A stretch of 64,000 bases of DNA from Eledone cirrhosa (lineage: Eukaryota): the NCBI GenBank assembly GCA_964016885.1, contig OZ024741.1:393514001-393578000 (forward strand), given 5' to 3'. Of the stretch, positions 3,891-64,000 are shown one piece after another; position 1 is the stretch's first letter; each line of letters opens with the position of its first letter. The notes beneath the pieces are model-generated. The model made no database searches, was not told where the DNA came from, and saw nothing but the letters and a program-made list of their open reading frames with translations. The position numbers and the translations under genes are program-made.

Positions 3891-4518
3891 TAAATGTAAT
3901 CTGAGTTTTCGAATATTAATAATAATATTCGATTCATTTGCAATTATGCAAACAAGCTTCATTTTTAAAGCCATGTCAGTAGAATGAGCCCCTTATTCTT
4001 GCTCTTGTGTTGGCATGTAAACAGAACTGCAGACACTAATGTTTCTGGGTATTACCCTTCATCAGTACAGTTCACTGTTCACCTGCCAACTGTCAGAGAT
4101 AGTGAAAATGTATGCTATTTTCTAAAATATACAGTGACGGATCGGCCTGATTTGCATATTAGCAGACTGGCTGATCAGTCAGATCTGCATATTAGCAGAT
4201 CAATTGATCAGCCAGATTTGCATATCAGCAAACTGGCCAGTCTGTATACGAGCAATCAATGGCTGGCTTTGCCATATTCAAATAATAAAAACATTTTTTG
4301 CTCTACATGGCTGACAGCTCTGACAGTTGGCAGGTAAACAGTGAACTGTACTGTAATACCCAGAATCATTAGTGCCTGCAGTCCTGTTTACATGCCAACA
4401 CAAGTGCAAGAATGAGGGGCTCATTCTACTGACATGGCTTTAAAAGCGAGGCTTGTTTGCATAATTGCAAACAAATCGAATATTATTATTAATATTCAAA
4501 AAACTCAGATTACATTTA
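3891..4518. mobile_element. non-coding fold-back element: ~210-bp inverted arms, each with a hammerhead motif, around three 33-bp palindromic repeats
   Basis: Begins TAAATGTAATCTGAGTTTT and ends AAAACTCAGATTACATTTA, and the arms are reverse complements. Core units at 4140-4238. Further copies at 4673-4905, 31720-32128 and 62562-62962. Confidence 0.85.
4024..4073 (-). ncRNA. type I hammerhead ribozyme (canonical core)
   Basis: Minus strand reads GAACTGTA-CTGATGA-AGGGT AAT ACCC A-GAAAC ATTAGT GTC-TGCAGTTC. Stems I, II and III pair and the cleavage triplet is GUC. Confidence 0.85.
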
Positions 4519-4631: not shown

Positions 4632-4904
4632 ACTAACAGATAGTGTTATCGTTCTACATAGTTGAATACAAGAAATGTAAATCTGAGTTTTTTTAATATT
4701 AATAATAATATTCGATTTGTTTGCAATTATGCAAAAAGCATCTTCAGCCATGTGAGTAGAACAACCTCGTCATTCTTTCTCTTGTGTTGGCATATAAACA
4801 GATAAACAGAACTAATGTTTCTGGGTGATTACCCTTCATCAGTACCATATACTGTTTACCTCCCAACTCTCAAAGCTTGTGAAAATATATTATATTTTCT
4901 GGAA

Positions 4905-9216: not shown

Positions 9217-9279
9217 ATGGGAGTGCGTGGCTCTGATGAACGCCAACCAGCATGAAACAGACTGTTAGCTACTCTCCAT
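9217..9279 (+). ncRNA. orphan type I hammerhead ribozyme inside a (TA)n tract
   Basis: GTGGCT-CTGATGA-ACGC CAACCA GCAT-GAAAC AGACT GTT-AGCTAC, with an outer GGAG/CTCC pairing. Confidence 0.75.
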
Positions 9280-10416: not shown

Positions 10417-10548
10417 CTGGGAAAAAAAATCAGATATTTTGAAAACGTATAGAAAAGTATCTCCAAAGATATATATATACTGTACATATATATATATTGA
10501 AAGAGTGAAGAATAACATAGTCAACAGTACAAAAAAGGGTTTTATTTA

Positions 10549-10662
10549 CAGTATTAACAATTGTTTCACTGATTAAGTTGTCTAAAAATTGCTGAACACT
10601 TGAAGCTGTGCCATTCAATTTTAAATATGTTGTTAGCTTAACCAGATCATCAGAAGGGACTG
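10549..10662 (-). ncRNA. hammerhead ribozyme with extended stem II
   Basis: CTGATGA-T CTGGTTAAG..~55 nt..CTTAATCAG T-GAAAC AATT GTT-AATACTG. Stem I is imperfect. Confidence 0.65.
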
Positions 10663-12357
10663 TTAAAAATATGCTCAGCGTTTAAAACTGGATTACCTAT
10701 AACAATATTTTGTTATTCCTTGTATATATACTAGTCATAATAATAATACATTTGTTTAAGTTTATTATTATTATTATTATAAACTTTAGGAGGTTGGTTT
10801 ATACTATTCCTATATATGTAGTTAATTTTATTGTTGTATCCAGCTCTGTGTAGAGCGTCATTGTAATATTCTGCGTTGTTATCAAATATATTTTTATTAG
10901 CTGAGAGTCTAGATATTCTTTGCTGGACACTATTAACTATAGCTTTTTTAACATTTCTAGGGTGGTTTGAGTAGAAGCTGATGTAGTTTAGGTTTTCACT
11001 AATCTTATGGAACGAGTAATATAGGCCGGAGTTAAGGTTTAGTGTAACGTCTAAGAAATTAATAATTTTATTATCATTTTCTACACAGAGCTGGATACAA
11101 TAATACAATTAATTACATAGATAGTATAAGCAAACCTAAAGTTTATTATAATAATAATATATTTAAACAAATTAACCAAAATAATAAATCAAATAAAAAA
11201 GCCAGAACTAGAAATATAATTTGGTATTCACCTCTAATTTCCTTAGGAATTAAGATACCTTTAGCACACCAATTCTTTAAAGCTTTAGATAAATGTTTTC
11301 CTAAGTCCCATAAGTATCACTCCATTTTTAACAGACATACAGTCAAGCTCTCTTACTCTACTACTATGAATATTACTCTACTACTATGAATATAGCCCAA
11401 AATATTGCTAGAATTAATAATAGGAATTTAAAATTAAACCCAACTGAAGTAAACTCAAATAACAATATAATTAATAACATTACGTATAATAGTAATAGCG
11501 AATGCATAAATAATAATACGGTATCTTTAAATAACAATATAAGAAAATGTAATTGCAGAAATAACATCTTATGCCCTTTGCAGAATAATTGCCTTGATAG
11601 AAATTTAGTATACAAATACACCATAAAAACTAGGGATAGATTATATAACTATATAGGAGCAACTTCTTCAAAATTTAAGGAGCGTTGGTATAATCATAAA
11701 CATACTTTCAAATGACTGGATAAAAAATTCTCAACCTCACTATCACAATTAATTTGGTCTTTAAAAGACAATAACACTGACTATTCAATCTCTTGGAGAA
11801 AAATATCGAATGCGGCAGTTTACCAAAATATGGCTCTCTCAAGAATTTGTCATCCCTGTATTGAAGAAATATTTCATATAATTACCAATCCTGGTAATAT
11901 TATTAACAAAATAAGGAAATATTTAATTCTTGTTTGCATCGATTCTCAAGAACATTTCACAACATTTTCTTATATTTTAAAATATGGAGCAGCTCCATAT
12001 TGCATAGTCCGCAGTGGGACATTCCATTTCTGTAGGCCCTTGCACTCAATAACTTCGGCAATTCATGAACTCAATACACTATATTAGTACGCCGTCCACT
12101 CACCAACATTTTGCCTATCATATATCGTATTTCTTTTCATGTTATTGTTATCATTACTGTCATCACTATTTTACACATCCACTTACTAACCATTATAACT
12201 TCATCTACCACAACCCCTACTACTATTATCAATAACGTATTTTTTGTTCTGAAAATATTTTTTATCATTTCATTAGTTTTTATTATTGGTGTTATTGTTT
12301 CCATTTACTTGATTCTCCGATGTATCTATAAATACCAGTGCCCTGTGTTACATCCTT

Positions 12358-12470
12358 CAGTATTCTGATGATTTGATCAGAGACACACTGTATTTAAGGT
12401 CGAGTGACGCAATTTCTAGTGATTAGCGACCTTTAGACTCACCTGATCAATGAAACGATTGTTAATACTG
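12358..12470 (+). ncRNA. hammerhead ribozyme with extended stem II
   Basis: CAGTATT-CTGATGA-T TTGATCAG..~60 nt..CTGATCAA T-GAAAC GATT GTT-AATACTG, with a perfect 7-bp stem I. Confidence 0.75.
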
Positions 12471-12519
12471 TAAATAAACCCTTTTTGTACAGCCATTATT
12501 CTTCACTCTTTCACTATAT

Positions 12520-20261: not shown

Positions 20262-23200
20262 ATTTGCATTTATCTTGCTTTATGTTTATACGAGTTATCA
20301 CCAAGTCACAACCAGTGACCTCAAGAGACAACAAGGTCCGCCATGTTCAAGAAAGAACATACATATTCACACATGCATCTTTAGGTGTTTAGACTTGTGA
20401 TGTACTTATATTGACAGGATCTTCCTTAGTATATGGGCAGTTCCCATTAGTACTATCTTTTGTATTTCTCCTATACGCGGGTTTCCTGGGATTTGCGATA
20501 AGTAGTCGTTAGACCCCTTAGGTATCATTCCCAGAGCGCCTACAACCACTGGTATTGTTTTAGTTCTCAATTTCCACATTTTTCCAATTTCTATCTCCAG
20601 GTCCTTATACTTGCTCAATTTTTCAAATGTTTTTATAGATACATTCTTGTCTATTGGAACAGACATATCAATTAGCAGGCATACCCTCCTTTGAAAGTCC
20701 TTCAATATTATATCAGGTCTATTTGCATCTATTTTTCGGTCTGTTTGGATGCTAAAGTTCCACAAGATTGAGATGTGATCTTTTTCAAGTATGGGAGGTG
20801 GTTGATGCTCCCACCAATTCTTTTGATGGGGCAGGTCAAAATGCTTACACATTATCCAATGTATGTATTGTGCAGCTCTGTCATGCCTGTTTAGGTATTC
20901 GGTTGGAGCTATAGGACTGCACATTGAAATTATATGGTCAATGGTCTCTGGTTGTTTTTTGCATACACGGCATAATGGGCTGCACCCATTTTTTATTATG
21001 TTGGCTTGGTAATTTTTTGTTGGCAGACACTGATCTTGTGCCGATATAATCAGTCCTTCAGTCTCCGATTTCAGTCCAGAGGATGCCAACCACTGATGGG
21101 TTAAAGTTTTGTCAACATCAGGATTGTTAGCTCGCTCTGGGTATTTTCCATACAGAGGCTTTTCTTGCCATTTCTTAGCCAGTTTCTGTAGCAGTTCTTT
21201 CTTTGCAGTTACTTTTACCTGCTTTGCTTTTTCTGTGTTTTCCATTTCAGCAGTAAATGGGACTTCTGAAATTTGTAGTCCATTACTGTATCTTTGTGCA
21301 TCTTTTGTAATGGAATATGATCTTTTGGTGCTTTCGTGTTTCAAAACGAGTTTGATCATCCAATCATGTGATTCCCTTAGATATGTGGATAATCCAATTG
21401 TTGCAGTTTTCAACGCAATGTCTAACTGGATTAACCCACGTCCTCCTTCTTTCCTAGGGAGATATATTCTATCTATGTCTGCCTTAGGGTGATGCATTCT
21501 GTGCATGGTTAAGAATTTTCGGATTTTTGTATCGAGCCTACGGATCTCTGTGCTTGACCAGTTGATGACATTGTAACTGTAGGTTACTACTGGTATGGCA
21601 AGCGTGTTTATGGCATCGATCCTATTCCTTGCATTCAATTCCGTTCTTAAGATTGCTCTGACTCTGCGGTAACATTCCTTCCTTATCCTTTCCCTCATTG
21701 TCGAGTGCTTGATTCCGTCTCCTTCACAAACACCTAGATATTTGTAAGTTTTTTCTTGATCAAGCTCTCTTATCACGTTCCCCCGATCAAGATTAATGTC
21801 TGAACTCTTCAGCAGCTTTCCTCTGGTGAACGTTGCTTTGGCGCATTTATCCAGTCCAAACTCCATTTTAATGTCATCACTGAACTGCTTCACAGTGGAT
21901 AATAGCCCTTGCAATTGTTCATCATTTTTTGCAAATAGTTTCAGGTCATCCATGTAAAACAGGTGATTAATGGTTTTGTCATAGACTCTAGATCCATGTT
22001 TTGTTTCATTGAGCATTTTACTTAATGGTATAAGTGCAATGCAGAATAAAAGCGGTGATAAAGAGTCACCCTGAAAAATTCCACAATTAATGTTAACTTC
22101 TCCAGCTTCCAGTGATTTTGTTTCACTATTCAAAAGGAGTGTCGTTCTCCATGTCCTCATACTGAATGACAAAAACCTCCTGACAACGGGGGATATTTTG
22201 AAAATCTCTAAACATTTTTCAATCCAACTGTGTGGCAAACTATCGAATGCTTTTTTATAATCTATCCAAGCAATCGATAGATTTTTGTGTCTATTATGAC
22301 AATCTTCCAGTATCATTTTGTTAACCAGAAGCTGATCCTTACAGCCATATGAGCCTCGTTTACACCCTTTCTGCTCAATGGGAAATAGGTCATTTGTTAT
22401 CAGGTGGTCATATGTGTATTCAGTTAGGACTGATGTTAACATTTTATACATTGTGGTCAAGCAGGTTATCGGTCTGTAATTTTTGGGATTGTTTGTCTCA
22501 TCATTCTTCGGTAGCAGGAATGTAATGCCGTTAACTAGCCATGATGGTATCTTTTCTGGCTCCTTAACTATTTCATTGTAAAGTTGGGCTAACAGCTCAT
22601 GAGACTCTGTGAAGGCATTTATCCAAAAGTTTTGTATTTTGTCTTTTCCTGGGGATTTCCATTTGCTGGTTTTTCTTAGAGCCAAGCGCAGCTGTTCAAC
22701 TGTTATATTTTCCCATGTTTGTTCTTCAAGGTGAGCTGTTTCTTTCATTTGTCTGTCTATCCATGGGGCATGTATGTTATGAACTTTTTCTTCGGCCCAG
22801 ATCTTTTCCCAGAATTCTTGCACTTCCTCCTTGGGTGGTATTGATTTAGCAGTTATTGTTGACTTACCAATTTTTCTGTAGAAGTTTCTTTGGTTGTTTT
22901 TGAACATATTATTGTCCTTATAGAATCTAGATCGTTTTTCAAAGCGCCTTATACGAGCAGCTTTGGCCGACACTTTTTGCTTGATTGTTTCTATCAGCAT
23001 GTCTATGTCACATGTTGATCTTATACTGTACTTTTTTTTCAATTTTCTAAGTTTAGTTTGTTTAACATGTTCACCTACTTTATAGTTTGTTAAAATTTCT
23101 ATGTCAGATCGGAGAAGGTTTATTTGGCGATTGATGTTATCTTGCCAAGTAGATTTCTTGTGGGAATTCCTTTGTTTTTTCATCTTCACTCCACATAAGT

Positions 23201-23460
23201 GAGTGGTGACTTTAGCCGATGCATAATAGAGATGATTTAAGTCAGTAATGTTTAGTTTGTTTGTGATGATAATGTTTTTGAGAATTATGTTAGTCTTGTG
23301 TATTATCTTTTGGTTCTGTTTGGAGTTCTGGATCTTAGGGAGGGTGTCTCATTGCCCCATGTCAGATTCTTTCATTTTCATCCATTCGATCATAATTTCA
23401 TCCTTGAAGTTGGCAAGTTCATTCTCATTCATTTCTTTATCATTTACGATCTCATTATTT
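20262..23460 (-). mobile_element. R4/Dong-clade non-LTR retrotransposon, 5'-truncated and nearly intact
   Basis: Contains the 927-aa ORF. The frame extends ~90 codons upstream with one TGA. Short 3' UTR, and (TAA)n tracts on both sides. Confidence 0.92.
20406..23189 (-). CDS. reverse transcriptase + CCHC zinc knuckle + restriction-like endonuclease (R4/Dong)
   Basis: KSPGKD, NYRPITCL, DYKKAFDS, GIFQGDSLSP, YMDD, CRVC..ETIDHIISMC, RHD, RPD..D..K..KY. Confidence 0.93.
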   Translation of the reverse strand: MKMKKQRNSHKKSTWQDNINRQINLLRSDIEILTNYKVGEHVKQTKLRKLKKKYSIRSTCDIDMLIETIKQKVSAKAARIRRFEKRSRFYKDNNMFKNNQRNFYRKIGKSTITAKSIPPKEEVQEFWEKIWAEEKVHNIHAPWIDRQMKETAHLEEQTWENITVEQLRLALRKTSKWKSPGKDKIQNFWINAFTESHELLAQLYNEIVKEPEKIPSWLVNGITFLLPKNDETNNPKNYRPITCLTTMYKMLTSVLTEYTYDHLITNDLFPIEQKGCKRGSYGCKDQLLVNKMILEDCHNRHKNLSIAWIDYKKAFDSLPHSWIEKCLEIFKISPVVRRFLSFSMRTWRTTLLLNSETKSLEAGEVNINCGIFQGDSLSPLLFCIALIPLSKMLNETKHGSRVYDKTINHLFYMDDLKLFAKNDEQLQGLLSTVKQFSDDIKMEFGLDKCAKATFTRGKLLKSSDINLDRGNVIRELDQEKTYKYLGVCEGDGIKHSTMRERIRKECYRRVRAILRTELNARNRIDAINTLAIPVVTYSYNVINWSSTEIRRLDTKIRKFLTMHRMHHPKADIDRIYLPRKEGGRGLIQLDIALKTATIGLSTYLRESHDWMIKLVLKHESTKRSYSITKDAQRYSNGLQISEVPFTAEMENTEKAKQVKVTAKKELLQKLAKKWQEKPLYGKYPERANNPDVDKTLTHQWLASSGLKSETEGLIISAQDQCLPTKNYQANIIKNGCSPLCRVCKKQPETIDHIISMCSPIAPTEYLNRHDRAAQYIHWIMCKHFDLPHQKNWWEHQPPPILEKDHISILWNFSIQTDRKIDANRPDIILKDFQRRVCLLIDMSVPIDKNVSIKTFEKLSKYKDLEIEIGKMWKLRTKTIPVVVGALGMIPKGSNDYLSQIPGNPRIGEIQKIVLMGTAHILRKILSI

Positions 23461-31760: not shown

Positions 31761-31840
31761 TTGGCAGGTGAACAGTGAGCTGTACTGATGAAGGGTGATA
31801 CCCAGAAACATTAGTGTCTGCAGTTCTGTTCGCATGCCAA
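31761..31840 (+). ncRNA. type I hammerhead ribozyme (same family as 4024-4073)
   Basis: TTGGCAG GTGAACA GT GAGCTGTA-CTGATGA-AGGGT GAT ACCC A-GAAAC ATTAGT GTC-TGCAGTTC TGTTCGC A TGCCAA. Confidence 0.85.
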
Positions 31841-43064: not shown

Positions 43065-45459
43065 AAAATTGAACAGGAACAAAACAGAGAGGCAGTACGA
43101 ACAAATGTTTATTAGTTTCACGCTCTTGAGAGTGGGGTGGTGGTGGGGGACGACGTTTCGGGCATAAGCCCTTCTTCAGGCGAAAAGTGTGTGGGAAGAG
43201 AGTTCCAAGGGTGTGTAGGGGAGTGGGGGAGAGACATTTAGAAAAAAAGGGGTGAGAGGAAACGGTACAAATGAATAAATATAAAAGCATAATAAAAATA
43301 AAAATAAACTTGAAGTAAAACAAGTGGTGGAAGGGTGTGGGGCGTGTAGGGGTGGTAGCGGGTGGAGTGGGGAGAGGGAGGTGGGGTATCCGAGCGGGGA
43401 GGGCTGAAGGTGGTGTGTGTGTATAGGTGTACGTGTGTATGTGAATGTGAGAGTTGGGGGGAAGAACGGGGTTGCATGTTCAGGAAAAGGTGTGTGTGGG
43501 GTGGGGTGTAGGTCGGTGTGTGTGCGTGTGTGTGTGCGTGTGTGGATGGGGAGGGGTCAGAGGGGTGGGGGAGGGGAAGAGAGGATTCCAGAGGCTGAGT
43601 GTGTAAATATGTGGTGGTACGCATGTGTGTGTGGTGTTTATACGTATTGTGGATGTAGGTGGCGTGTGGGAAAAATTTTTTTTTTTAGTGTATGTCCGTG
43701 GGTAAGTTCCTAAGGTAGTTCCGTAGAGGATGTGGTGGGATGCTGGGTAATTTCCTTGTGATGGAGTTGATTCGTGGGAGCAATGTCCAATGTGTGTAAT
43801 CCGTAGTTGGGTTGGTTGGAAGAGGGGAGATGTGGGGTGCGCGCGCAACGGGAAGTGGTCAGAGGGTCAAGGCAGGAGGAGGGTTGTGTGTCTGTGTGTG
43901 CGGAGAGGTGGTCAGAGATTCAGGGCATAGCAGCAGTCGGGGAGAATGGCAGTGTATTAGTGTGTGCGGAGGTGCGGTGGACAGGGGAGAGGATGGGTAG
44001 GTGTGAAAGGTAGAGTGGGGAGGGTGTGTGTATTAGTAGAGGTATTAGTGGGATGTGTGTGTGTGAGAAGGGGTGTGGGTGGAGCGGGGAGGGGGAGGGG
44101 AGAGAAAGGTGTGGGGGCCGGTGGAGGGAGTGTAGTGTACTGGTGTGTGTGTGTGCGTGATAAGGCGAGAGGGGGGAAGAAAGGAGGGATGTTAGTATTG
44201 TTAGTTGGGGAAGGGTGGTCGGGTGTGGGGTGGGGGTGTTAGTATTATTAGTTGTGGGGTGGGTGGTGAAAAGGAGGGGTGTGTTAGTGGTGTTAGTGGG
44301 GGATGTGTGTGTGTGTGTGTGGGGGGACATGGCGGTCGAAGGCTAAAAGGAATAGGGGTGGGGAGTTCAGGCCGGGGGGAGTGTGGGTCTGTAGGGTGAA
44401 GATGGTGCGCTGTTCGACCCTGAGGAGGGTGGCGGGTGTTTCGTGGCATTGGAGTAGGCCACAGACTGTGAGGTGGTGCGGGAAATGTCCAGGGGCGCCA
44501 AAGTGGCGGGCGATGGGGGAACTACCGCCGAGACGAATATCCCGGAGGTGTTCGGTAAACCGGTCCGCCAGGCGACGTCCAGTCTGTCCAATGTAGGTTG
44601 CGCTGCACTCTGTGCAGTGAAGTCCATAGACTAGGTTGGAGGAGGTGCAGCGGAAGGCATGCCGGACAGAGAGAGAGTGGCCGTTGGGACCCTGGAAGGT
44701 GGTGGTGTTGGTGATGTGGGGACAAGTGTTGCAACGAGGCCTGGAACAGGGAAGGGAACCGGGGGGAGGTGGGGGGGGGCTGTGGACGAGGAGGGTGCGG
44801 AGATTGCGTGTGCGTTTGAAGGAGGGGAGTGGTGGGGCTGGGAAGATGTGGGAGATGGAGGGGTCGGACTGGAGGCGTCGGAAGAGGCGGAGGATGGTGC
44901 GGTGGAGGGGTAGGGTGGAGGGATGGTAGGTGATGGGGAAGGGGAGACGGTGGGTGTGGGTGTGTGGTGGCGTGGGGTGAGGGTGGTGGAGCGGTGGACA
45001 GCACGGGCGCGGGTGAGGGCGGTATGGACGAGAGGGGGGGGGGGGGGGGGGAACCTCTGCGGATGAAATGGCTGACTAGAGAAAGGGCTTGGGACTCGTC
45101 AGCATCTCGGCTACAGAGGCGGCGGATCTTGAGGAGTTGGTAGTAGGTAATAGAGTGTTTAGTGTGTGTAGGGTGGGAAGAGGTGAAGTCGAGGTCGGAG
45201 TGGGAGTCGGTGGGTTTGAAGAAGGCGGATGTGATTAGGGAGTGGTGGGAGGGGTCGAAGGCGATGGAGATGTCTAAGAAGTGGACGTCGGTGGTGGAGA
45301 TAGAGGTGGTGAAGTGGAGGGAGATGTGGAAGGAGCAGAAGAAGGAGAGAAAGGAGTCGAGCTGTTCTCGGGTGAGGGTCGTGGTTCCGATACAGTCGTC
45401 GATGTAACAACCGTACAGTTCGGGCGTGGGGCCGGTGTACTGGGCAAAGATTCGGGCCT

Positions 45460-51859: not shown

Positions 51860-54442
51860 AGTCATGTGACTGTGTGTTTTGTCAGACATGCAGGTGTTTT
51901 AAGAGGTGTCTGGCATGTTCCATCATGTAGTGAGAACAGATGTGGGTGAGGGTGGCACTCATGTGGGTATGTAATAAATATGACAATTGAAAGAGGGAGA
52001 TTACTTGTTCAATCCTGAATAAAATATGTGTCTAGAAAATGTTTTGAATTCAGCACATCACATCCTCCTGGGGTTTTTGAAATTCATTCCCCTTTCTTGT
52101 ATTCATTTGGACCTTTAAAGCTGAATAGTTTCTGGAGCAGGTAAAGTTGTTTCCCATCGGCTTCAGCCTTTTCACAGAGTATACAAATGTCTTGGAATGT
52201 TGGATTTTACAAGAGAAGTTGTTTGCTCCGAATATGCTGATCGTTAACTCTGGCAATGAGATGATCCTGGAGTACCATGTTTAGCTGGTCACTGAAATCA
52301 CATCTGATTCCCTGGTGTAATTTCAAGATGAATTGACAGGACTCAGATTCACCATGCACTAATGATTTAAATTATGCTCTCTTAGTTACTTGAAACTTTG
52401 CCAGTTTTAAATGGTTGTGAAGATCCTCCTGCATTTCTTTTAAGGATGCTGGCTTGAGATCTTTCAGATAGATCACTGTCTTCAGTGAAAATGCTTCCTC
52501 TCCAATTGCAGTTAGGAAAGAACCCTTGATAAACTTTCCTGACAGATTTTCCCTTTGTTCTACCCAAAAGTCGAAATGATCCAAGTGGTCTTGAACTTCT
52601 TTAGCAGTCGAAGAAATATCTAAGAATTCAATCTTTAGGTCTATTTGAATGGTTGTAGAAATAGTTGTTGAAGTAAGGAATTATTAACAGCAGTGGTGAA
52701 TGATTGAAGAAGGTTAAACTCTTGAATTTCACTAGGGATTCTTGCTATCTTTGTCACCAGTTGAAATGAACAAAACAAGCTGTCTAATTAAGCCCATCTT
52801 GAGAGAAGTGACCACCAATTTAATTTGCTGTCACGTGATTGTGTGTTTTTTCAGACATGCAGGTGTTTTAAAAGGTGTCTGGTATGTTCCATTATGTAGT
52901 GAGAACAGATGTGGGGGAGGGTTGTACCCATGTGGGTATGTGATATGGCCGAGCTAGAGAAGAAATTCCAAACATGGAAGCACGACCTAGAATCAAAAGG
53001 CCTTAAAATTAACATGGCTAAGACTAAAGTTCTAGTTTGTAGGAAAGAAAATAAGGTGCCGGTCCCTTCCGGGAAATGGCCATGCTCAGTGTGTAGGAAA
53101 GGCGTAGGTAGAAACTCCATTTTATGTCCCAAATGCAAAGTATGGGTGCATAAAAGATGTAGTGGGATCACAGGTAAGCTAACTAAGAACATAGATTTTA
53201 CATGTGGCCGGTGCTCTGGTGCAATAAGCAGCAGTAAGTGCCCACAAAATACTAGCTCTTTCAACTGCGCAGAGGGTTCTATAGAAATAGTGGACAGCTT
53301 CCGTTACCTGGGTGACAAAATCAGCAGTGGGGGAGGGTGCTCCGAAAGTACAGTAGCTAGAGTCAGAACTGGATGGAAAAAGTTCAGAGAGCTTATACCA
53401 CTATTAGCCGCTAAAGGGTTCTCCCTAAAAATGAAAGGCAGGTTGTATGATGCCTGCATACGAACAGCAATGTTGCATGGCAGTGAGACCTGGGCATTGT
53501 GTGCAGAGGATATACGCAGACTAGAGAGGAACGAAGCTTGCATGCTCCGCTGGATGTGTAATAGTAATATACGCGAACGGCAAAGCATAAACGAACTAAG
53601 GAAAAAATTAGAAATAAGAGGGATCAGATGTTGTTTACTCGAGAGAAGGCTACGTTGGTATGGTCACGTGATGCGCATGAAAGACGACAGCTGTATAGCA
53701 AAGTGCAGGGCAATAAAGATAGACGGTAGCCATGGAGTAGGCAGACCCAGAAAAACCTGGGATGAGCTGATAAATTCCGACCTCACACACTTACACCTCT
53801 CCAAGACAATGTCACTGGACCGAGAGCTTTGGCGGTACTCAGTAATAGAGAAGACCCGCGTTACCTAAATACAAAGTAAAACCTACTACAGTCAGTAGGC
53901 ATCTCTAACAAAATACACCCCCGTCCCACCACCCCCACCCCATCCACACCACCCCTTTCAATGTAAAGTTATGTTGGTGCCACAAAATCCAGGCCGAAAC
54001 AAATGAGATCGTGTAGGTGTCACGACAAAAAACACACAGTCCACGCTGTAATGTGACCGTGTAGGCAACACGGTAAAAACCTCCCAGTCCCACACTGTAA
54101 ATGTGGTTGGTGTTAGGAAGGGCATCCAGCTGTAGAAAACCCGCCAGACAGTCCACGCTGTAATGTGGCCGTGTAGGCAACACAGTAAAAACCTCCCAGC
54201 CCCACACTGTAAATGTGGTTGGTGTTAGGAAAGGCATCCAACTGTAGAAAACCCGCCAGACAGTCCTATGCGAGCAAGACAACCACTCTTGCCTCAAGTG
54301 GGAAAACTCTCGTCCAAACCCATGCAAGCATGGAACACGGACGTTAAACGATGATGATGATGATGATGATGAATGAGGGAAATTATGTTCAATCTTGAGC
54401 AAAATATGTGTCTAGAAAATGTTTTGAATTCATCACATCACA
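51860..54442 (-). mobile_element. internally deleted Gypsy-type LTR retrotransposon (gag relic). LTRs at 51860-52062 and 52829-54442, the latter split by an RTE insertion
   Basis: Two similar ~200-bp direct repeats starting TGTGATG on the minus strand. Purine-rich AGGAGGA before the 3' LTR. Gag-like FLTAIGEEAF..L.NHL..CDF..L...LQDHLI in between. Confidence 0.75.
52942..54370 (+). mobile_element. RTE LINE, 5'-truncated, with open C-terminal frame (ORF 52909..53868)
   Basis: GLKINMAKTK, PHD-like Cys cluster, FRYLGD, RRLRWYGHVMRM, GRPRKTW and a (GAT)n tail. Confidence 0.92.
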
Positions 54443-56044: not shown

Positions 56045-58238
56045 TAGTGTAAATAATTACAACAGTGACATAAACAGGTACTCAAGTTTTGTTGTCATAA
56101 TAAAAATAAAAATAAAGATGAGCGCCTAGGGTTGATTGTGTTTTCCTTTTAGGATTATATCATAAGAGTTTCAACAAAGGCAGATAATTTGGAAATACGA
56201 AAAAGCTGATCCTGCTACCTATAATGCCATTAATACTGAGGCGAAGGATATAGCCACCTCCCTTTAAGTAAATAACAAGTTAGAGTGCTTGGCTAGGAGG
56301 GAGGATAATATCACCCTTAAGGATCATAAGAATGACTTTGCCAATAAACCAGCTTGCAGATTCTTAAACCCTGCTAAAATAGAGCTAGGTCTTGTTAGTA
56401 AGTATATACTCAGGAAAATTAATACAGCCATTAAGAAACAGTCCAACCTTAATCAGTGGGATAATAGTCAAACCTTTATAGATTGGTTTAATGCCCTCAA
56501 ACACACTGAGAAAGCTAGGTTTACACAATTTGACATTATTAAATTTTATCCCTCAATACCCAGGATCTTATTTGATAAGGCCCTTGATTTTGCTACTAAA
56601 TTTACTAACATAGATGATTTGGACTGATTAGTCATATCCCACTGCAGGGAATCCCTCCTTTTTAGCAACGGCGATCCATGGATAAAACAACCCACAACCA
56701 ACAACCCATTCGATGTAGTAATGGTATCATTTGACAGCACAGATATATGTGATCTGGTGGGCCTGTTTATTCTATACACTATACAGAATAAATTCCTTGA
56801 CTTCCATATGGAACTATATTGTGATAACGGTCTGGCACTATCCAGCCATAAAAGTGGCCATGATTTTAACACCTTTAGGAAAAACTTAATCGCTACCTTC
56901 AACAGCCTAGGTGTAAAATTACGAGAGCCACCAATCTCACCAATGTCAACTTCCTAGACGTTAACTTAGACCTACAGACATGCACATAAAGACCATTACA
57001 CAAACCCAATGAGAAACGTCAGTAGATCCATAAGAACTCTAGCCACCCCACTATAGTTTTTAAAAATCTCACTAACAACATTAGTAAGAGGGGTTCCAAC
57101 CTCTCCTCCAGCAAAGCCATCTTTGATAGGGCAGCACCCTACTATAATTCAGCACTGAGTAACAGCGGCTTCTCCAAAAAAATCACGTACTCTCCAGATC
57201 ACAGCCCTACATCTAGAAAGAAAAACCCTAGACATAAAAATATCATATGGTTCACACCACCTTTCTCACTTAATGTGAAAACTAATTTAGGTAAAAATTC
57301 CTAGCCCTCATAGATCTCCATTTCCCTGATGTCCATAAATACCAAAAGATATTTAATCACCATACAGTAAAAATAGGATACTCTTGCACCAACAATGTTA
57401 GATCCTACATCACCGGCAAACACAAAAGCCCTCCACCATACGGTTGCTCATATAGAATACCTGAAACATGTCCACTAGACCAACAATGCAAATCTCCTGA
57501 GGTGATATACCAAGCAGAGCTTACCTCTACCATTCAGAACCATCAAACTGAAGCCTGGAGCTGTGTCGGTATGTCTGAGAGTCGGTTTATAAACTGGTAT
57601 CTGAATCACGAAACAACCTTCGGATATCTTGACAAAAAACATGCCACCCAGCTCACAAATCACGTATGAAGCCTTAAGAACAACGTCACGCGTTTTCCCA
57701 TCAAATGGAGGATATTAGAAAGATCTACTGCCTACGTGAATAGGTCGGAATTTTGTTGACTTGTAATTCTGAAAAATGGTATATACTCTCACAATTAGCT
57801 TCAGATAAGCACTGCCTCAACACACGGCTTGATTGCTTTGGCGGTTGTCTCCATGAGAAGAAGTACATTTTGAGTAAATGGCTTAGACCTGATTAACAGG
57901 TCTAGAAGTATACTTTGATTCATTGACTATTTTGTATATCAGGGAAATTGCATTCTTTGAGTCAGCTAGACAAATTTATTTCCCTTCTATTCTTATTCAA
58001 GCTTAATTGTGGTCTCTCAAGAGTTACCTCCCTGGTACCTTCTAATAAAAAAAACAACTTTTTCTAAATAATTTCCAAATTACCTGCCTTTATTTAAATT
58101 CTTATGATATATTCCTAAAAGAAAAGCACAATCAACCCTAGGCAGCCATCTTTATTTTTCTTTTTCTTAAGACAGTCTGAATGAGTAGGGGTCCAGAACC
58201 CAACGAAACTTGAGTATCTGTTTATGTCACTGTTGTAA

Positions 58239-59387: not shown

Positions 59388-59855
59388 ATCGACCGGTTAA
59401 ATTACTCGGTATCTGGTTTGGTCCAGACCTCCACATGGACAAAAACTGGCACGAGGTAAAGTTCAAGGTGGCTTCTCTCACCTAGAAATGGGCCAAGAGG
59501 AAGCTATCCTTGAAAGGCCAGGCAAAGGTGGTGAACATGTACATCATGTCCGTCATCTACTACTGCCTGGCCATCGTGCTTTGTGTTAGCCCCCATCTGA
59601 CTGCACTAGAGCGTCTATTTTTCGCTTTTTTTGGAGGGCCAGGTTCAATTGGTGAGGTGGTCCATCTGCTGTCAACACCCGCTACGTAGAGGATTGGGGA
59701 TGCCATGGCTGATGATGTGCAAACATGCGCTGAGGCTATGACATCTTCAACTTTTCCTGGATGGTGCGGTTGCTAGACATATTTTTCCCCAGCTTGTCAC
59801 CTTGATGGAACTGTAGTCCTGAGTCAAGCGAAGACCGAGGTAGAGTGTTTGGAGA
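59388..59855 (+). mobile_element. Tx1/L1-clade LINE fragment
   Basis: VKLLGIWFG...NW..V......W..RKLSLKG.A.VVN, F.FF and GLGMP. Confidence 0.75.
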
Positions 59856-59859
59856 CTGG

Positions 59860-61745
59860 AATGTCTTCAAGATGCTGAAGGCATCTGGTTCGGTAGGTCA
59901 CACCATAACCACACGTATTGTTAACCAGGTAGTACTAGAGGGTGTCATACCAAAGGATTGGTGTAGCAGCATCATTGTCAACTGCTACAAGGGTAAAGGT
60001 GATGCACTAGATAGAGGAAACTATAGAGGTATAAAGCTCATGGACCAGGTCATGAAAGTAACGGAAAGAGTTATAGCACAGTTGATTAGGGACCAGGTAA
60101 AACTAGATGAGATGCAATTTGGGTTTGTGCCAGGAAGAGGGACCACTGATGCCCTCTTCCTTGTGAGGCAGTTACAGGAAAAGTTCCTAACTAAAAGTAA
60201 GCTGCTCTACCTGGCATTCATTGATCTGGAAAAAGCCTTTGACATAGTGCCCCGTGACATAATCTGGTGGGCACTTAGAAAACTAGGAGTAGATGAATGG
60301 CTTGTGAAATCTGTACAAGCCATGTATAGGGGAACAGTCAGCAAAGTTAGGGTTAACAATGACTATAGCGAGGAATTTAGCATACAGATTAGTGTCCACC
60401 AGAGCTCTGTTCTTAGCCCTCTCCTGTTCATTATAGTTTTGCAGGCAATAACAGAGGAGTTTAAGACCGGATGCCCATGGGAACTCCTGTATGTGGATGA
60501 TCTCACACTTATAGCTAAATCTATGGTGGAACTAGAGAGGAAATTCCAAACAGAAGCAGGGACTAGAAAGAAAGGGTCTCAAAGTCCACCTAACAAAGAC
60601 TAAGGTCTTCGTAAGTAGACGAGAAAACAGAACCCAGATCCCCTTAGGGAAATGGCCTTGCTCAGTATGTAGGAACTCCATCCTCTGCCCCAAATGCAAA
60701 CAGTGGGTACACAAGAGATGTAGTGGGATCTCAGGAACTTAACTAAGAATGTAGGCTTCACATGTAGCAGCTGCGCTGGGACAGCAAGCAGCAAACAGCC
60801 ACAGGAAACAAGTACCACCAAACTCTGGGAGGGCTCTATAGAAAAAGTAGACAGCTTCTGCTACATAGGTGACCGAATTAGCAGTGAAGGTGGGTGTTCG
60901 GAAAATACAATAACTAGAGTAAGAACGGGATGGAAGAAGTTCAGGGAACTACTACCACTGCTAGCTGCAAAAGGCTTTTCCCTTAAAATTAAAGGCAGAC
61001 TGTATGATGCGTGTATCCGAACAGCAATGTTACATAGTAGTGAGACCTGGGCGCTGTGTGTAGAAGACTTGCGTAGATTAGAGAGAAATGAAGCCTGCAT
61101 GCTCCGATGGATGTGTAATAGTAATATACGTGAACGACAAAGCATAAATGAATTGAGAGAGAGACTGAGCATAAGAGGAATCAAATGTTGTGTGCAGGAG
61201 AGGTGGTTGCGTTGGTATGGACATGTGATGTGTATGAAGGATGACAGCTGCATAAAAAGGTGCAGAGTACTAGAAGTCAATGGAAACCACGGAGTGGGGA
61301 GACCAAGATGACCTGGGATGAGGTGATAAAAGCCAACCTTACCCAATTACACCTCTCAAAGGCGATGACACACAGCCGTGACCTCTGGTGTCACACAGTA
61401 ATACAGAAGACCCGACTTCCCACGGGTACAAGCCAAAGGTGAAGCATATAGACAATATGTCTCCACACCCTCCCACTGCAAAGTGGTCGTGGAGGTGCCA
61501 TGGCAAAAAAGCACCCAGCCCACACTGTAAAGTGGACGTGTAGGCGCCACGGAAAAAAGCACCCAGCACTCACTGTAAATGAGGTTGGTGTTAGGAAGGG
61601 CATCCAGCTGTAGAAATCAAGCCAGAATCAGTTCCTGTATGAGCAAGACAAGGTCAGCCGACCGGACACAGCCCACAACAGGACAACCCATCTAACCCAT
61701 GCTAGCGTGGAAGAACGGACTTAAAACGGTGATGATGATGTGATG
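59860..61745 (+). mobile_element. RTE LINE, 5'-truncated and frameshifted
   Basis: NYRGIKLM, QFGFVPGRGTTDA, FIDLEKAFD, LLYVDD, RWYGHVM, 3' UTR and (GAT)n tail. Confidence 0.92.
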
Positions 61746-63146: not shown

Positions 63147-64000
63147 ACTGTGACAGTAATATCTGCGTAAGCACCCCAATCCGGACTGCCTGGCGCTATA
63201 AAAGGCAGATTCTATGAGACACTGATCCTCACTACCTCCGAAATAACCGACAGTGACTATATAATTATTGCTGGCGACCTAAATGGTCACATTGGACAAC
63301 ATTGTGACGGCTATGATGGAATCCACGGAGGCTATGGGTTTGGTACTAGAAACGAGGAAGGCTCCAGAATCCTGGAATTCTGTGACGCAAATAACCTAAC
63401 TATCTGTAACACTAACTTCAAAAAACGAGACAATCACTTGATCACCTACAGATCGGGGGAACACACAAGCCAGGTAGATTATATCCTTACCAGGAGACGT
63501 GACAGAGTGTCTGTTGTAAACACTAAATCCCTCCCCCATGAAGAATGCACCTCCCAACATAGACTGATAATTAGCGACCTCATAGTCAGGACGAGACGTA
63601 CTCGACAACAGAAGAGGACTATCCTCAGGAGAAAAATATGGAAGCTAAAGGACCCCACAGCCAGAAATAAATTTAAAAGCATACTACTTGATGCTTTCGA
63701 CAGTAAGGAAGAGCATTTAGAGTCGTACAATATAGAGGAACAGTGGGAATTCCTGAAAGCAAACCTGCTGATGGCGGCAGATGAAGTCTGTGGCTGGAGC
63801 AGGCCTATAGGCAGGAGGAGAGTAACATGGTGGTGGAACAGTAAGGTGGAGGAGTCAATTAAGGCCAAAAAGCAGGCTTGAAAAGTATGGCGGGATGGGG
63901 GAAGTAGAGAAGACTATCAAGTGGCCAGGAGGGAAGCTAGGAGGCAAGTGTACTTCGCAAGAAGGGAAGCAGAGGAAAGAAAGTTCAAGCATGTTCTACA
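63147..64000 (+). mobile_element. RTE LINE, APE endonuclease region (continues beyond the window)
   Basis: IIAGDLNGHIG, GGYGFGTRNEEG, NTNFKK, TYRSG..SQVDYIL, SQHRLI and TWWWN, with in-frame stops. Confidence 0.9.

What the first reader, a model, noticed from the sequence alone, without database searches (positions are those of the whole stretch)
12358..12470. Pair of hammerheads whose stem II holds a ~60-nt inserted domain with compensatory base changes
Seen: the HHRs at 12358-12470 (+) and 10549-10662 (-) are homologous but diverged, and the differences keep pairing. The basal helix TTGATCAG/CTGATCAA corresponds to CTGGTTAAG/CTTAATCAG. The inner helix AAGGTCG/CGACCTT corresponds to AAAATTG/CAATTTT (three compensatory pairs). 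It is capped by AGTGACGC-AATTTCTA-GTGATTAG versus AATGGCAC-AGCTTCAA-GTGTTCAG. Known: PLE hammerheads usually have a short or minimal stem II. Inference: the insert is a selected RNA domain, such as an RT-binding or tertiary-contact module, nested in a ribozyme.
Basis: partly seen in the sequence, partly recalled or inferred. Interest (0 to 1): 0.8.

Follow-up and report, generated by a model that had tools for sequence, protein, structure and literature searches.

The report
Transposon hammerhead with a built-in domain
Thousands of jumping-gene copies in this animal genome carry a predicted self-cutting hammerhead RNA whose normally tiny second arm has grown to about 80 bases, keeps its base pairing across diverged families and holds two copies of one small conserved loop, likely a grip for the element's own reverse transcriptase.

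Summary
Both motifs are type I hammerheads with a 79-80-nt stem II, at the 3' ends of two subfamilies of a Hydra-clade Penelope-like element (not Naiad). They are independent insertions, not a working pair. The extension is under selection for RNA structure. Across 7 subfamilies, 142 of 147 helix cells pair and 11 of 21 pairs change on both sides (null: 121.9 and 1.6). G-U outnumbers A-C 17 to 2. Private mutations break pairs 98 times in 151. New here: the extension carries the same 2x1 internal loop twice (5'-AN U-3'/5'-A G-3'). These 15 columns are invariant while 40 of 55 others vary, and the double loop recurs in four more distant families. 1,459 copies keep the extension; 12 lack it, and none founded a subfamily. 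Half of the listed copies carry a weakened U4C core. The 25 published Hydra hammerheads have 12-26-nt stems II. Function is untested: a site for the element's RT-EN protein is most likely (about 0.5), tertiary docking next. No RNA data were found, and cleavage was not shown. Verdict: new variant of a known kind; interest 0.55.

The parts
12358..12470 (+). Type I hammerhead, subfamily A; predicted cleavage after U12463 (GUU)
12373..12450 (+). Extended stem II of copy A: basal helix 12373-12380/12443-12450, variable linker 12381-12389, 52-nt module, 3' linker 12439-12442
12390..12438 (+). Lower 2x1 loop: G12390-C12438, U12391-A12437, A12392 and U12393 opposite G12436, U12394-A12435, U12395.U12434; then the 7-bp inner helix
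12402..12427 (+). Upper 2x1 loop: G12402-C12427, A12403 and G12404 opposite G12426, U12405-A12425; cap helix with bulged A12422 and variable 8-nt loop 12411-12418
12455..12462 (+). Two-pair stem III with a near-palindromic loop (ACGAUUGU here, ACAAUUGU in the family): dimer-type hammerhead
12464..12516 (+). Tail from the cleavage site to the element's 3' end, then (TA)n; this copy lacks 8 nt of the family tail
12054..12516 (+). 3' UTR and pLTR end of a 5'-truncated subfamily A Hydra-clade element
11960..12057 (-). Inverted piece of subfamily A's endonuclease end (5' inversion of the same insertion)
   Evidence: 94% to L231
10549..10662 (-). Type I hammerhead, subfamily B; 79-nt stem II 10646-10568; predicted cleavage after 10556
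10494..10684 (-). Whole subfamily B copy, 5'-truncated 31 nt upstream of the core
11080..11967 (+). Broken RT-thumb and GIY-YIG ORF of a third Hydra family whose own hammerhead has a 25-26-nt stem II (that hammerhead is not in this copy); its inverted 5' part is 10750-11083 (-), its tail 10686-10730 (+)

Best explanation
These are the 3'-end hammerheads of two subfamilies of a Hydra-clade Penelope-like retrotransposon, and their stem II is extended into a conserved, covarying RNA hairpin with two copies of one 2x1 internal loop that likely serves as a binding site for the element's own RT-endonuclease protein. Shown: the linkage to Hydra ORFs, the covariation, the invariant loops, the palindromic stem III, and copy ends 56-60 nt past the cleavage site. 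Inferred: (1) RNA from tandem copies forms dimer hammerheads through the palindromic stem III and cleaves slowly at GUU. (2) The RT-EN protein binds the extension, which gives preference for its own RNA and may help the ribozyme fold. (3) Reverse transcription starts about 58 nt downstream, on uncleaved or re-ligated RNA, so new copies keep the whole ribozyme and tail.
For: Structure selected: 142 of 147 subfamily cells pair, 11 of 21 pairs change on both sides; null keeping relatedness 121.9+-7.6 (max 141) and 1.6+-1.1 (max 6) in 5,000 draws. 20 of 25 between-subfamily states pair, against 53 of 151 private changes (P 4e-5); G-U 17 versus A-C 2 points to the sense-strand RNA. Loop columns: 0 of 15 vary, other stem II columns 40 of 55 (P 2e-7). 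The module is 52 nt without gaps in 26 of 27 copies cut. A model of the module alone hits the 90-nt family at E 0.002 (its endonuclease is 54% identical). The double loop is in the commonest-letter profile of 3 of 4 further families (shuffles 0.0005-0.003), with U-A/C-G and G-C/A-U swaps. 1,459 intact versus 12 deleted copies, nearly all with different breakpoints. For a protein rather than docking: the loop lies 17-20 nt (5') and 14-20 nt (3') from the core behind an unconserved linker, the motif is repeated, and the extension is kept where the core is U4C (88 of 100 listed subfamily A copies; 50 of 100 listed clade copies). Copies end 56-60 nt past the cut in 90 of 138. Precedent: the Anolis PLE hammerhead cleaves only with its protein, and RT starts internally on unprocessed RNA (PMC11167929).
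Against: No binding, cleavage or expression data. Many Hydra elements lack the module: all 25 published families and the abundant 25-26-nt family here, so it is not a general RT requirement. The 95-nt family has a three-way junction and no double loop (0 of 37). In the 27-copy alignment the count of pairs with double changes is not beyond shuffles (55 of 500; 149 of 500 for the module). The single upper loop is in 4 of 15 cluster medoids against 1.7 expected (P 0.07). The double-loop descriptor was written after seeing the alignments, and it matches few single decayed copies (6 of 14, 2 of 19, 1 of 13, 0 of 17). Most double changes are transitions, one at a CpG. All data come from one genome. 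A weak U4C core could equally call for tertiary help (PMC3088659).
Confidence: 0.5

Rival explanations
1. The extension is a tertiary-contact domain that folds back onto stem I or its flanks and speeds cleavage without protein, replacing the usual loop I-loop II contact and offsetting the U4C core.
For: Natural hammerheads need stem I-II contacts, and core variants such as U4C are thought to be offset by them (PMC3088659). U4C is common in this clade. Invariant unpaired A and G residues suit docking.
Against: The distance from core to loop differs between families and the linker varies in 8 of 9 columns. Stem I is short or interrupted and variable. In the published data, shifting such contacts by a base pair or two lowers activity.
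Confidence: 0.2
2. The module binds a host factor or governs RNA stability, export or translation of the downstream tandem copy, since the pLTR doubles as its 5' UTR.
For: In L475 the sequence past the hammerhead matches the region before the start codon, about 300 nt away. Viral type I hammerheads act in translation initiation (PMC13725137).
Against: The extension lies 5' of the cut, so it stays on the upstream RNA's 3' end and not on the downstream mRNA. No Rfam family matches.
Confidence: 0.12
3. Only a folded stem II is needed. The long hairpin is tolerated filler, and its matched changes come from hairpin-templated repair, CpG decay and shared descent.
For: Stem II length runs from 12 to about 100 nt in this genome with several unrelated folds. 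Few independent lineages were sampled. Some simple covariation counts are not beyond shuffles.
Against: Repair would erase internal loops, yet these are the invariant part. G-U bias and the contrast with private mutations. Same loops in families more than 40% apart. No amplified deletion form.
Confidence: 0.1
4. The 5' strand of the big internal loop pairs with the tail about 25-35 nt past the cut, as a pseudoknot or switch that couples cleavage to RT initiation.
For: Complementarity by eye in several subfamilies. All 10 representatives pair better than their shuffled mean.
Against: Cognate -5.1 versus non-cognate -4.3 kcal/mol; P 0.03-0.33 per representative; the register shifts between subfamilies; the tail has essentially two states.
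Confidence: 0.08

Closest known systems
Hydra-clade Penelope-like elements and their hammerheads (Craig et al. 2021, PMC8557442)
   Same: RT followed by C-terminal GIY-YIG, RWK and DKT motifs, CxCx5C linker, (TA)n targets, 5' inversions, 3' type I hammerhead with extra U after CUGANGA and self-complementary stem III.
   Different: Published stems II are 12-26 nt in 25 families. Here they are 78-82 nt with two conserved 2x1 loops, a frequent U4C core, and an element of about 3.4 kb with a 3' UTR over 1 kb.
Minimal PLE hammerheads (Cervera and de la Pena 2014, PMC4209133)
   Same: Type I, dimer-type helix III, unpaired base before a 7-8-bp helix II, short helix I, many covarying families per genome.
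   Different: Their helix II is a simple stem-loop. Here the 8-bp basal helix carries a further 60 nt.
Anolis Poseidon PAc protein-assisted hammerhead (Frangieh et al. 2024, PMC11167929)
   Same: Hammerhead in the pLTR; copies keep a tail past the cut, fitting internal RT starts on uncleaved RNA.
   Different: The PAc stem II is short and overlaps the start codon. The binding element was placed only within the first 172 nt of the ORF. Here the hammerhead is about 300 nt before the start codon.
PLE-X1 hammerheads of Selaginella (Craig et al. File S2)
   Same: Long stem II regions (53 nt in PLE-X1_sMoe), flagged as deviating from the canonical structure.
   Different: Another clade; listed as a long loop with no described internal structure or covariation.
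Pseudoknot-stabilised hammerheads (Perreault et al. 2011, PMC3088659)
   Same: Peripheral elements that support the core, and tolerated core variants including U4C.
   Different: Their contacts sit at constrained distances on short stems. The pseudoknot tested here was inconclusive.

Membership tests
Type I hammerhead ribozyme | CUGANGA and GAAA-UH core in a three-helix junction with open stem I | tested here: met
   Both window copies. Subfamily A's usual core is CCGAUGA (88 of 100 listed), a known weakened natural variant.
Type I hammerhead ribozyme | Self-cleavage at the NUH site | not testable with these tools
   No RNA holder listed; needs an in vitro assay.
Type I hammerhead ribozyme | Match to an Rfam hammerhead model | tested here: not met
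   No hit at gathering or at E<=10; expected with an 80-nt stem II.
Dimer-type metazoan/PLE hammerhead | 1-2-bp stem III with palindromic loop | tested here: met
   Unconstrained 4-mer palindromic in 155 of 199 cores and as the top 4-mer in 16 of 31 clusters (AATT, ACGT, ATAT, GTAC, GATC, TCGA, GCGC; chance about 1 in 16). Self-dimer -8.2 and -8.8 kcal/mol.
Hydra clade PLE | Single ORF, RT then C-terminal GIY-YIG, with RWK and DKT motifs | tested here: met
   L475, a broken full-length clade member: IRWKAY, KADKTS, endonuclease last, hammerhead downstream on the same strand.
Hydra clade PLE | CxCx5C linker, no CCHH, CxxC and CxH around the conserved E and N | tested here: met
   By inspection of L238 (KCNCHLPDKCPL) and L231 (HCGLCNMELL...FCRH) against section 11 and the published alignment.
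Hydra clade PLE | Insertion into (TA)n | tested here: met
   Simple TA-type repeats follow the 3' end in 116 of 138 copies.
Hydra clade PLE | RT phylogeny groups with published Hydra RTs | not tested
Hydra clade PLE | Canonical short-stem-II hammerhead; generally under 3 kb | tested here: not met
   Stem II 78-82 nt versus 12-26 nt; L475 about 3.4 kb. These are described traits, not the clade definition.
Naiad clade PLE | N-terminal endonuclease, CxC domain, DKA motif, no canonical hammerhead | tested here: not met
   Endonuclease is C-terminal, motif is DKT, hammerhead present.
Non-LTR retrozyme | Short non-coding tandem repeats, each with a hammerhead | tested here: not met
   Neighbouring clade copies are inverted (20 of 21 divergent, 1 convergent, none tandem within about 3 kb) and follow ORFs.

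The most novel reading that the evidence does not exclude
A lineage of Hydra retrotransposons has built a repeated RNA motif into its hammerhead's stem II as the recognition site for its telomerase-related RT, making a protein-gated ribozyme. This would be the first defined RNA element of a Penelope-like RNP. Such long-armed hammerheads are invisible to current descriptors, so some elements reported to lack one (the Naiad 'half-core' cases with 35-50-nt spacing) may carry one.
Probability: 0.3. Interest if true: 0.75.

Novelty: new variant of a known kind. Interest (0 to 1): 0.55.

Why it matters
What hammerheads do in Penelope-like elements is open, and so is how their telomerase-related RT finds its RNA. 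A 52-nt module with two invariant loops, natural covariants, natural deletions and a natural weak-core variant gives a small, direct test of both questions. It also shows that Rfam and short-spacer descriptors miss at least about 5,000 hammerhead-like sites in this genome (2,360 and 2,608 pattern matches against 81 and 96 controls).

Tried and rejected
Rfam: nothing relevant. Metagenome pattern scan: 118 matches, 2 with minimal stems, none with a Hydra ORF or a profile hit better than E 0.03, so treated as chance; the spread beyond this genome is unknown. Protein searches: one 734-aa Hydra-type protein without a name at 29%, none for the endonuclease piece. Pfam misses these ORFs. Tail pseudoknot: inconclusive. 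Single-loop descriptor across clusters: P 0.07, with 16 of 31 clusters dropped for weak stems. Endonuclease tree: A, B and the 90-nt family group (0.999), the 84-85 and 80-nt families group (0.998), but a single origin of all long stems is unresolved (0.71); fragments were short and the profile picked up (TA)n translations. SECIS reading of the cap: considered from memory and dropped, because the pairing is a 2x1 loop with a 6-bp cap and Rfam gave no hit. Loop E, UAA/GAN and kink-turn labels (recalled): dropped, because the U-A pair swaps to C-G as a Watson-Crick pair. The covariance model could not be run on the whole genome, only on 31 held loci. R-scape was not available. Three look-ups of earlier findings returned nothing.

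Full report
Observation. Both motifs are at the stated places. They are type I hammerheads with CUGAUGA, an unpaired U, an 80-nt (A) or 79-nt (B) stem II, GAAAC, a two-pair stem III and a GUU triplet. They are 74% identical over 130 nt. The three double changes in the inner helix are real and the basal helix has three more. Stem II alone folds better than shuffles (z -2.75 and -2.20), the wider regions do not, and Rfam sees nothing.

Context. The genome is 3.0 Gb; the host was not identified. Copy A drew 2,484 candidates and copy B 1,118, of which 40 each were scored. In the window, A ends a 5'-truncated insertion (12054-12516 +) with an inverted piece of its own endonuclease end (11960-12057 -). 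B is a 190-nt end fragment (10494-10684 -). Between them lies the broken ORF of a third family whose own hammerhead has a 25-26-nt stem II. The two motifs face away from each other and are separate insertions. Within the clade, 20 of 21 neighbouring copies are such divergent inversions, the usual 5'-inverted PLE layout.

Element class. Clade hammerheads lie mostly 600-1,000 nt downstream of same-strand endonuclease frames that are 54-94% identical among subfamilies. A broken full-length member (L475) shows RWK and DKT motifs and a C-terminal endonuclease. L238 and L231 show the CxCx5C linker and CxxC/CxH motifs. These define the Hydra clade (PMC8557442 section 11; published alignment), not Naiad. 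In that paper's File S2, 25 Hydra families have 12-26 nt between CUGANGA and GAAA; only the Selaginella PLE-X entries have long loops.

Scale. A core pattern with a 60-90-nt gap has 2,360 matches against 81 control, with a 91-121-nt gap 2,608 against 96, and with a 30-59-nt gap 420 against 388. Stems II in fetched loci run from 12 to about 100 nt and fall into many families.

Selection on structure. 160 clade copies were collected. 134 fell into 7 subfamilies 9-35% apart; 26 copies in smaller clusters were left out. On each subfamily's commonest letters, 142 of 147 cells in 21 pairs pair, and 11 pairs change on both sides. A null that keeps relatedness gave 121.9 (max 141) and 1.6 (max 6) in 5,000 draws. 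20 of 25 between-subfamily states pair, against 53 of 151 private changes, and G-U outnumbers A-C 17 to 2. On 27 raw copies, 90.0% of 562 cells pair (slid controls 25-51%; 0 of 500 shuffles), but the number of pairs with double changes was reached by 55 of 500 shuffles. R-scape was not run. The subfamilies sampled through the CTGA pattern are biased towards canonical cores.

The module. From GUA to UAGAC the extension is 52 nt without gaps in 26 of 27 copies cut. It holds the same 2x1 loop twice: a closing pair, A and a variable base opposite G, then U-A. The 15 loop columns never vary among subfamilies, while 40 of 55 other stem II columns do. A covariance model of the module alone found the 90-nt family in register at E 0.002 among 31 loci; it did not find the other families. 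After fetching 20 loci for each of four more families, a double-loop descriptor matched the commonest-letter profile of 3 of 4 (shuffles 0.0005-0.003), with G-C/A-U and U-A/C-G swaps under the lower loop. The 60-nt family has one loop only. Single copies matched in 6 of 14, 2 of 19, 1 of 13 and 0 of 17; the clade in 64 of 99; the 90-nt family in 3 of 6; the 95-nt family in 0 of 37. The descriptor was written after seeing these alignments. A single-loop test over cluster medoids was not significant.

Natural variants. With matched flanks, 1,459 copies keep the extension and 12 lack most of it, nearly all with different breakpoints. No shortened form has amplified. The core is CCGAUGA in 88 of 100 listed subfamily A copies (333 in all) and in 50 of 100 listed clade copies, so the window's CUG in copy A may be CpG decay. 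U4C lowers activity in vitro yet works in a viroid (PMC3088659). Stem III is palindromic in 155 of 199 cores with several different palindromes, which argues that dimer cleavage is still selected. Copies end 56-60 nt past the cut in 90 of 138. The pLTR continues into the next copy's 5' UTR, about 300 nt before the start codon.

Mechanism. Most likely (0.5) the extension is a binding site for the element's RT-EN protein, next to where reverse transcription would start. The loop's distance from the core differs between families, the motif is repeated, and the Anolis PLE hammerhead cleaves only with its protein and is copied uncleaved from internal starts (PMC11167929). Rivals are protein-free tertiary docking (0.2), a host or translation role (0.12), tolerated filler (0.1) and a tail pseudoknot (0.08; inconclusive). 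Cleavage, expression and binding are all untested.

Literature seen. PMC8557442: passages, section 11, supplement parts 1-2 and searches. PMC4209133 and PMC11167929: parts 1-2 of 4; their supplementary figures were not seen and could show longer stems. bioRxiv 10.64898/2026.07.22.740005: part 1 of 5 and passages; its supplements are closed. PMC3088659: passages and section 8. PMC7229834, PMC13725137, PMC6962438, PMC6155905: passages. The 2017 Terminon paper was not available. Eight searches found no description of a structured 60-100-nt stem II in PLE hammerheads; the library lacks most subscription papers and Repbase.

Verdict. A real and selected feature: a new variant of the Hydra-clade hammerhead with a conserved double-loop module of untested function. 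Interest 0.55.

Noticed in passing
L186:1456-2618, L193, L208 (G000:C1; pattern): A hammerhead family with a 94-97-nt stem II folded as a three-way junction (z -5.5 to -7), about 2,600 matches. It occurs as same-strand tandem units of 743-1,009 nt with no ORF over about 90 codons: a large retrozyme-like element. No endonuclease frame was found upstream in 30 loci.
   Followed up: partly
L203:1476-1664 and the published Hydra-1_Obim 5' end: The 95-nt family's stem II shares a 12-nt word, and looser flanks, with the sequence before the start codon of the published Hydra-1_Obim consensus. Seen by eye only.
   Followed up: no
L475, L476, L477: A short motif, CATT..GTTGAGCA, recurs about 20-40 nt before the start codon in L475 and L477 and in the matching region of L476: a possible promoter or translation signal shared by diverged Hydra families.
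   Followed up: no
window 31785-31818 (+), 4032-4065 (-), 4810-4842 (-), 9233-9266 (+), 43149-43179 (-): Ordinary short-stem-II type I hammerhead motifs of other repeats in the same window.
   Followed up: partly
window 56175-57756 (+): Another broken Hydra-type RT and GIY-YIG ORF, 32-35% identical to P0001.
   Followed up: no
window 20406-23348 (-): 980-codon open frame with an RVT_1 domain, probably a young LINE. Other RT or endonuclease pieces at 59806-60603 and 63171-63881, and a PHD finger at 52903-53868.
   Followed up: no
window from about 32390: Long tandem array with a 40-nt unit, about 95% identical copies.
   Followed up: no
L161:2608-2802, L203:218-395, L117:1788-1918: Further long-stem-II hammerhead families (about 100-nt rod, 84-nt three-way junction, 51-nt hairpin) without the double loop, suggesting that stem II was extended more than once.
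   Followed up: partly
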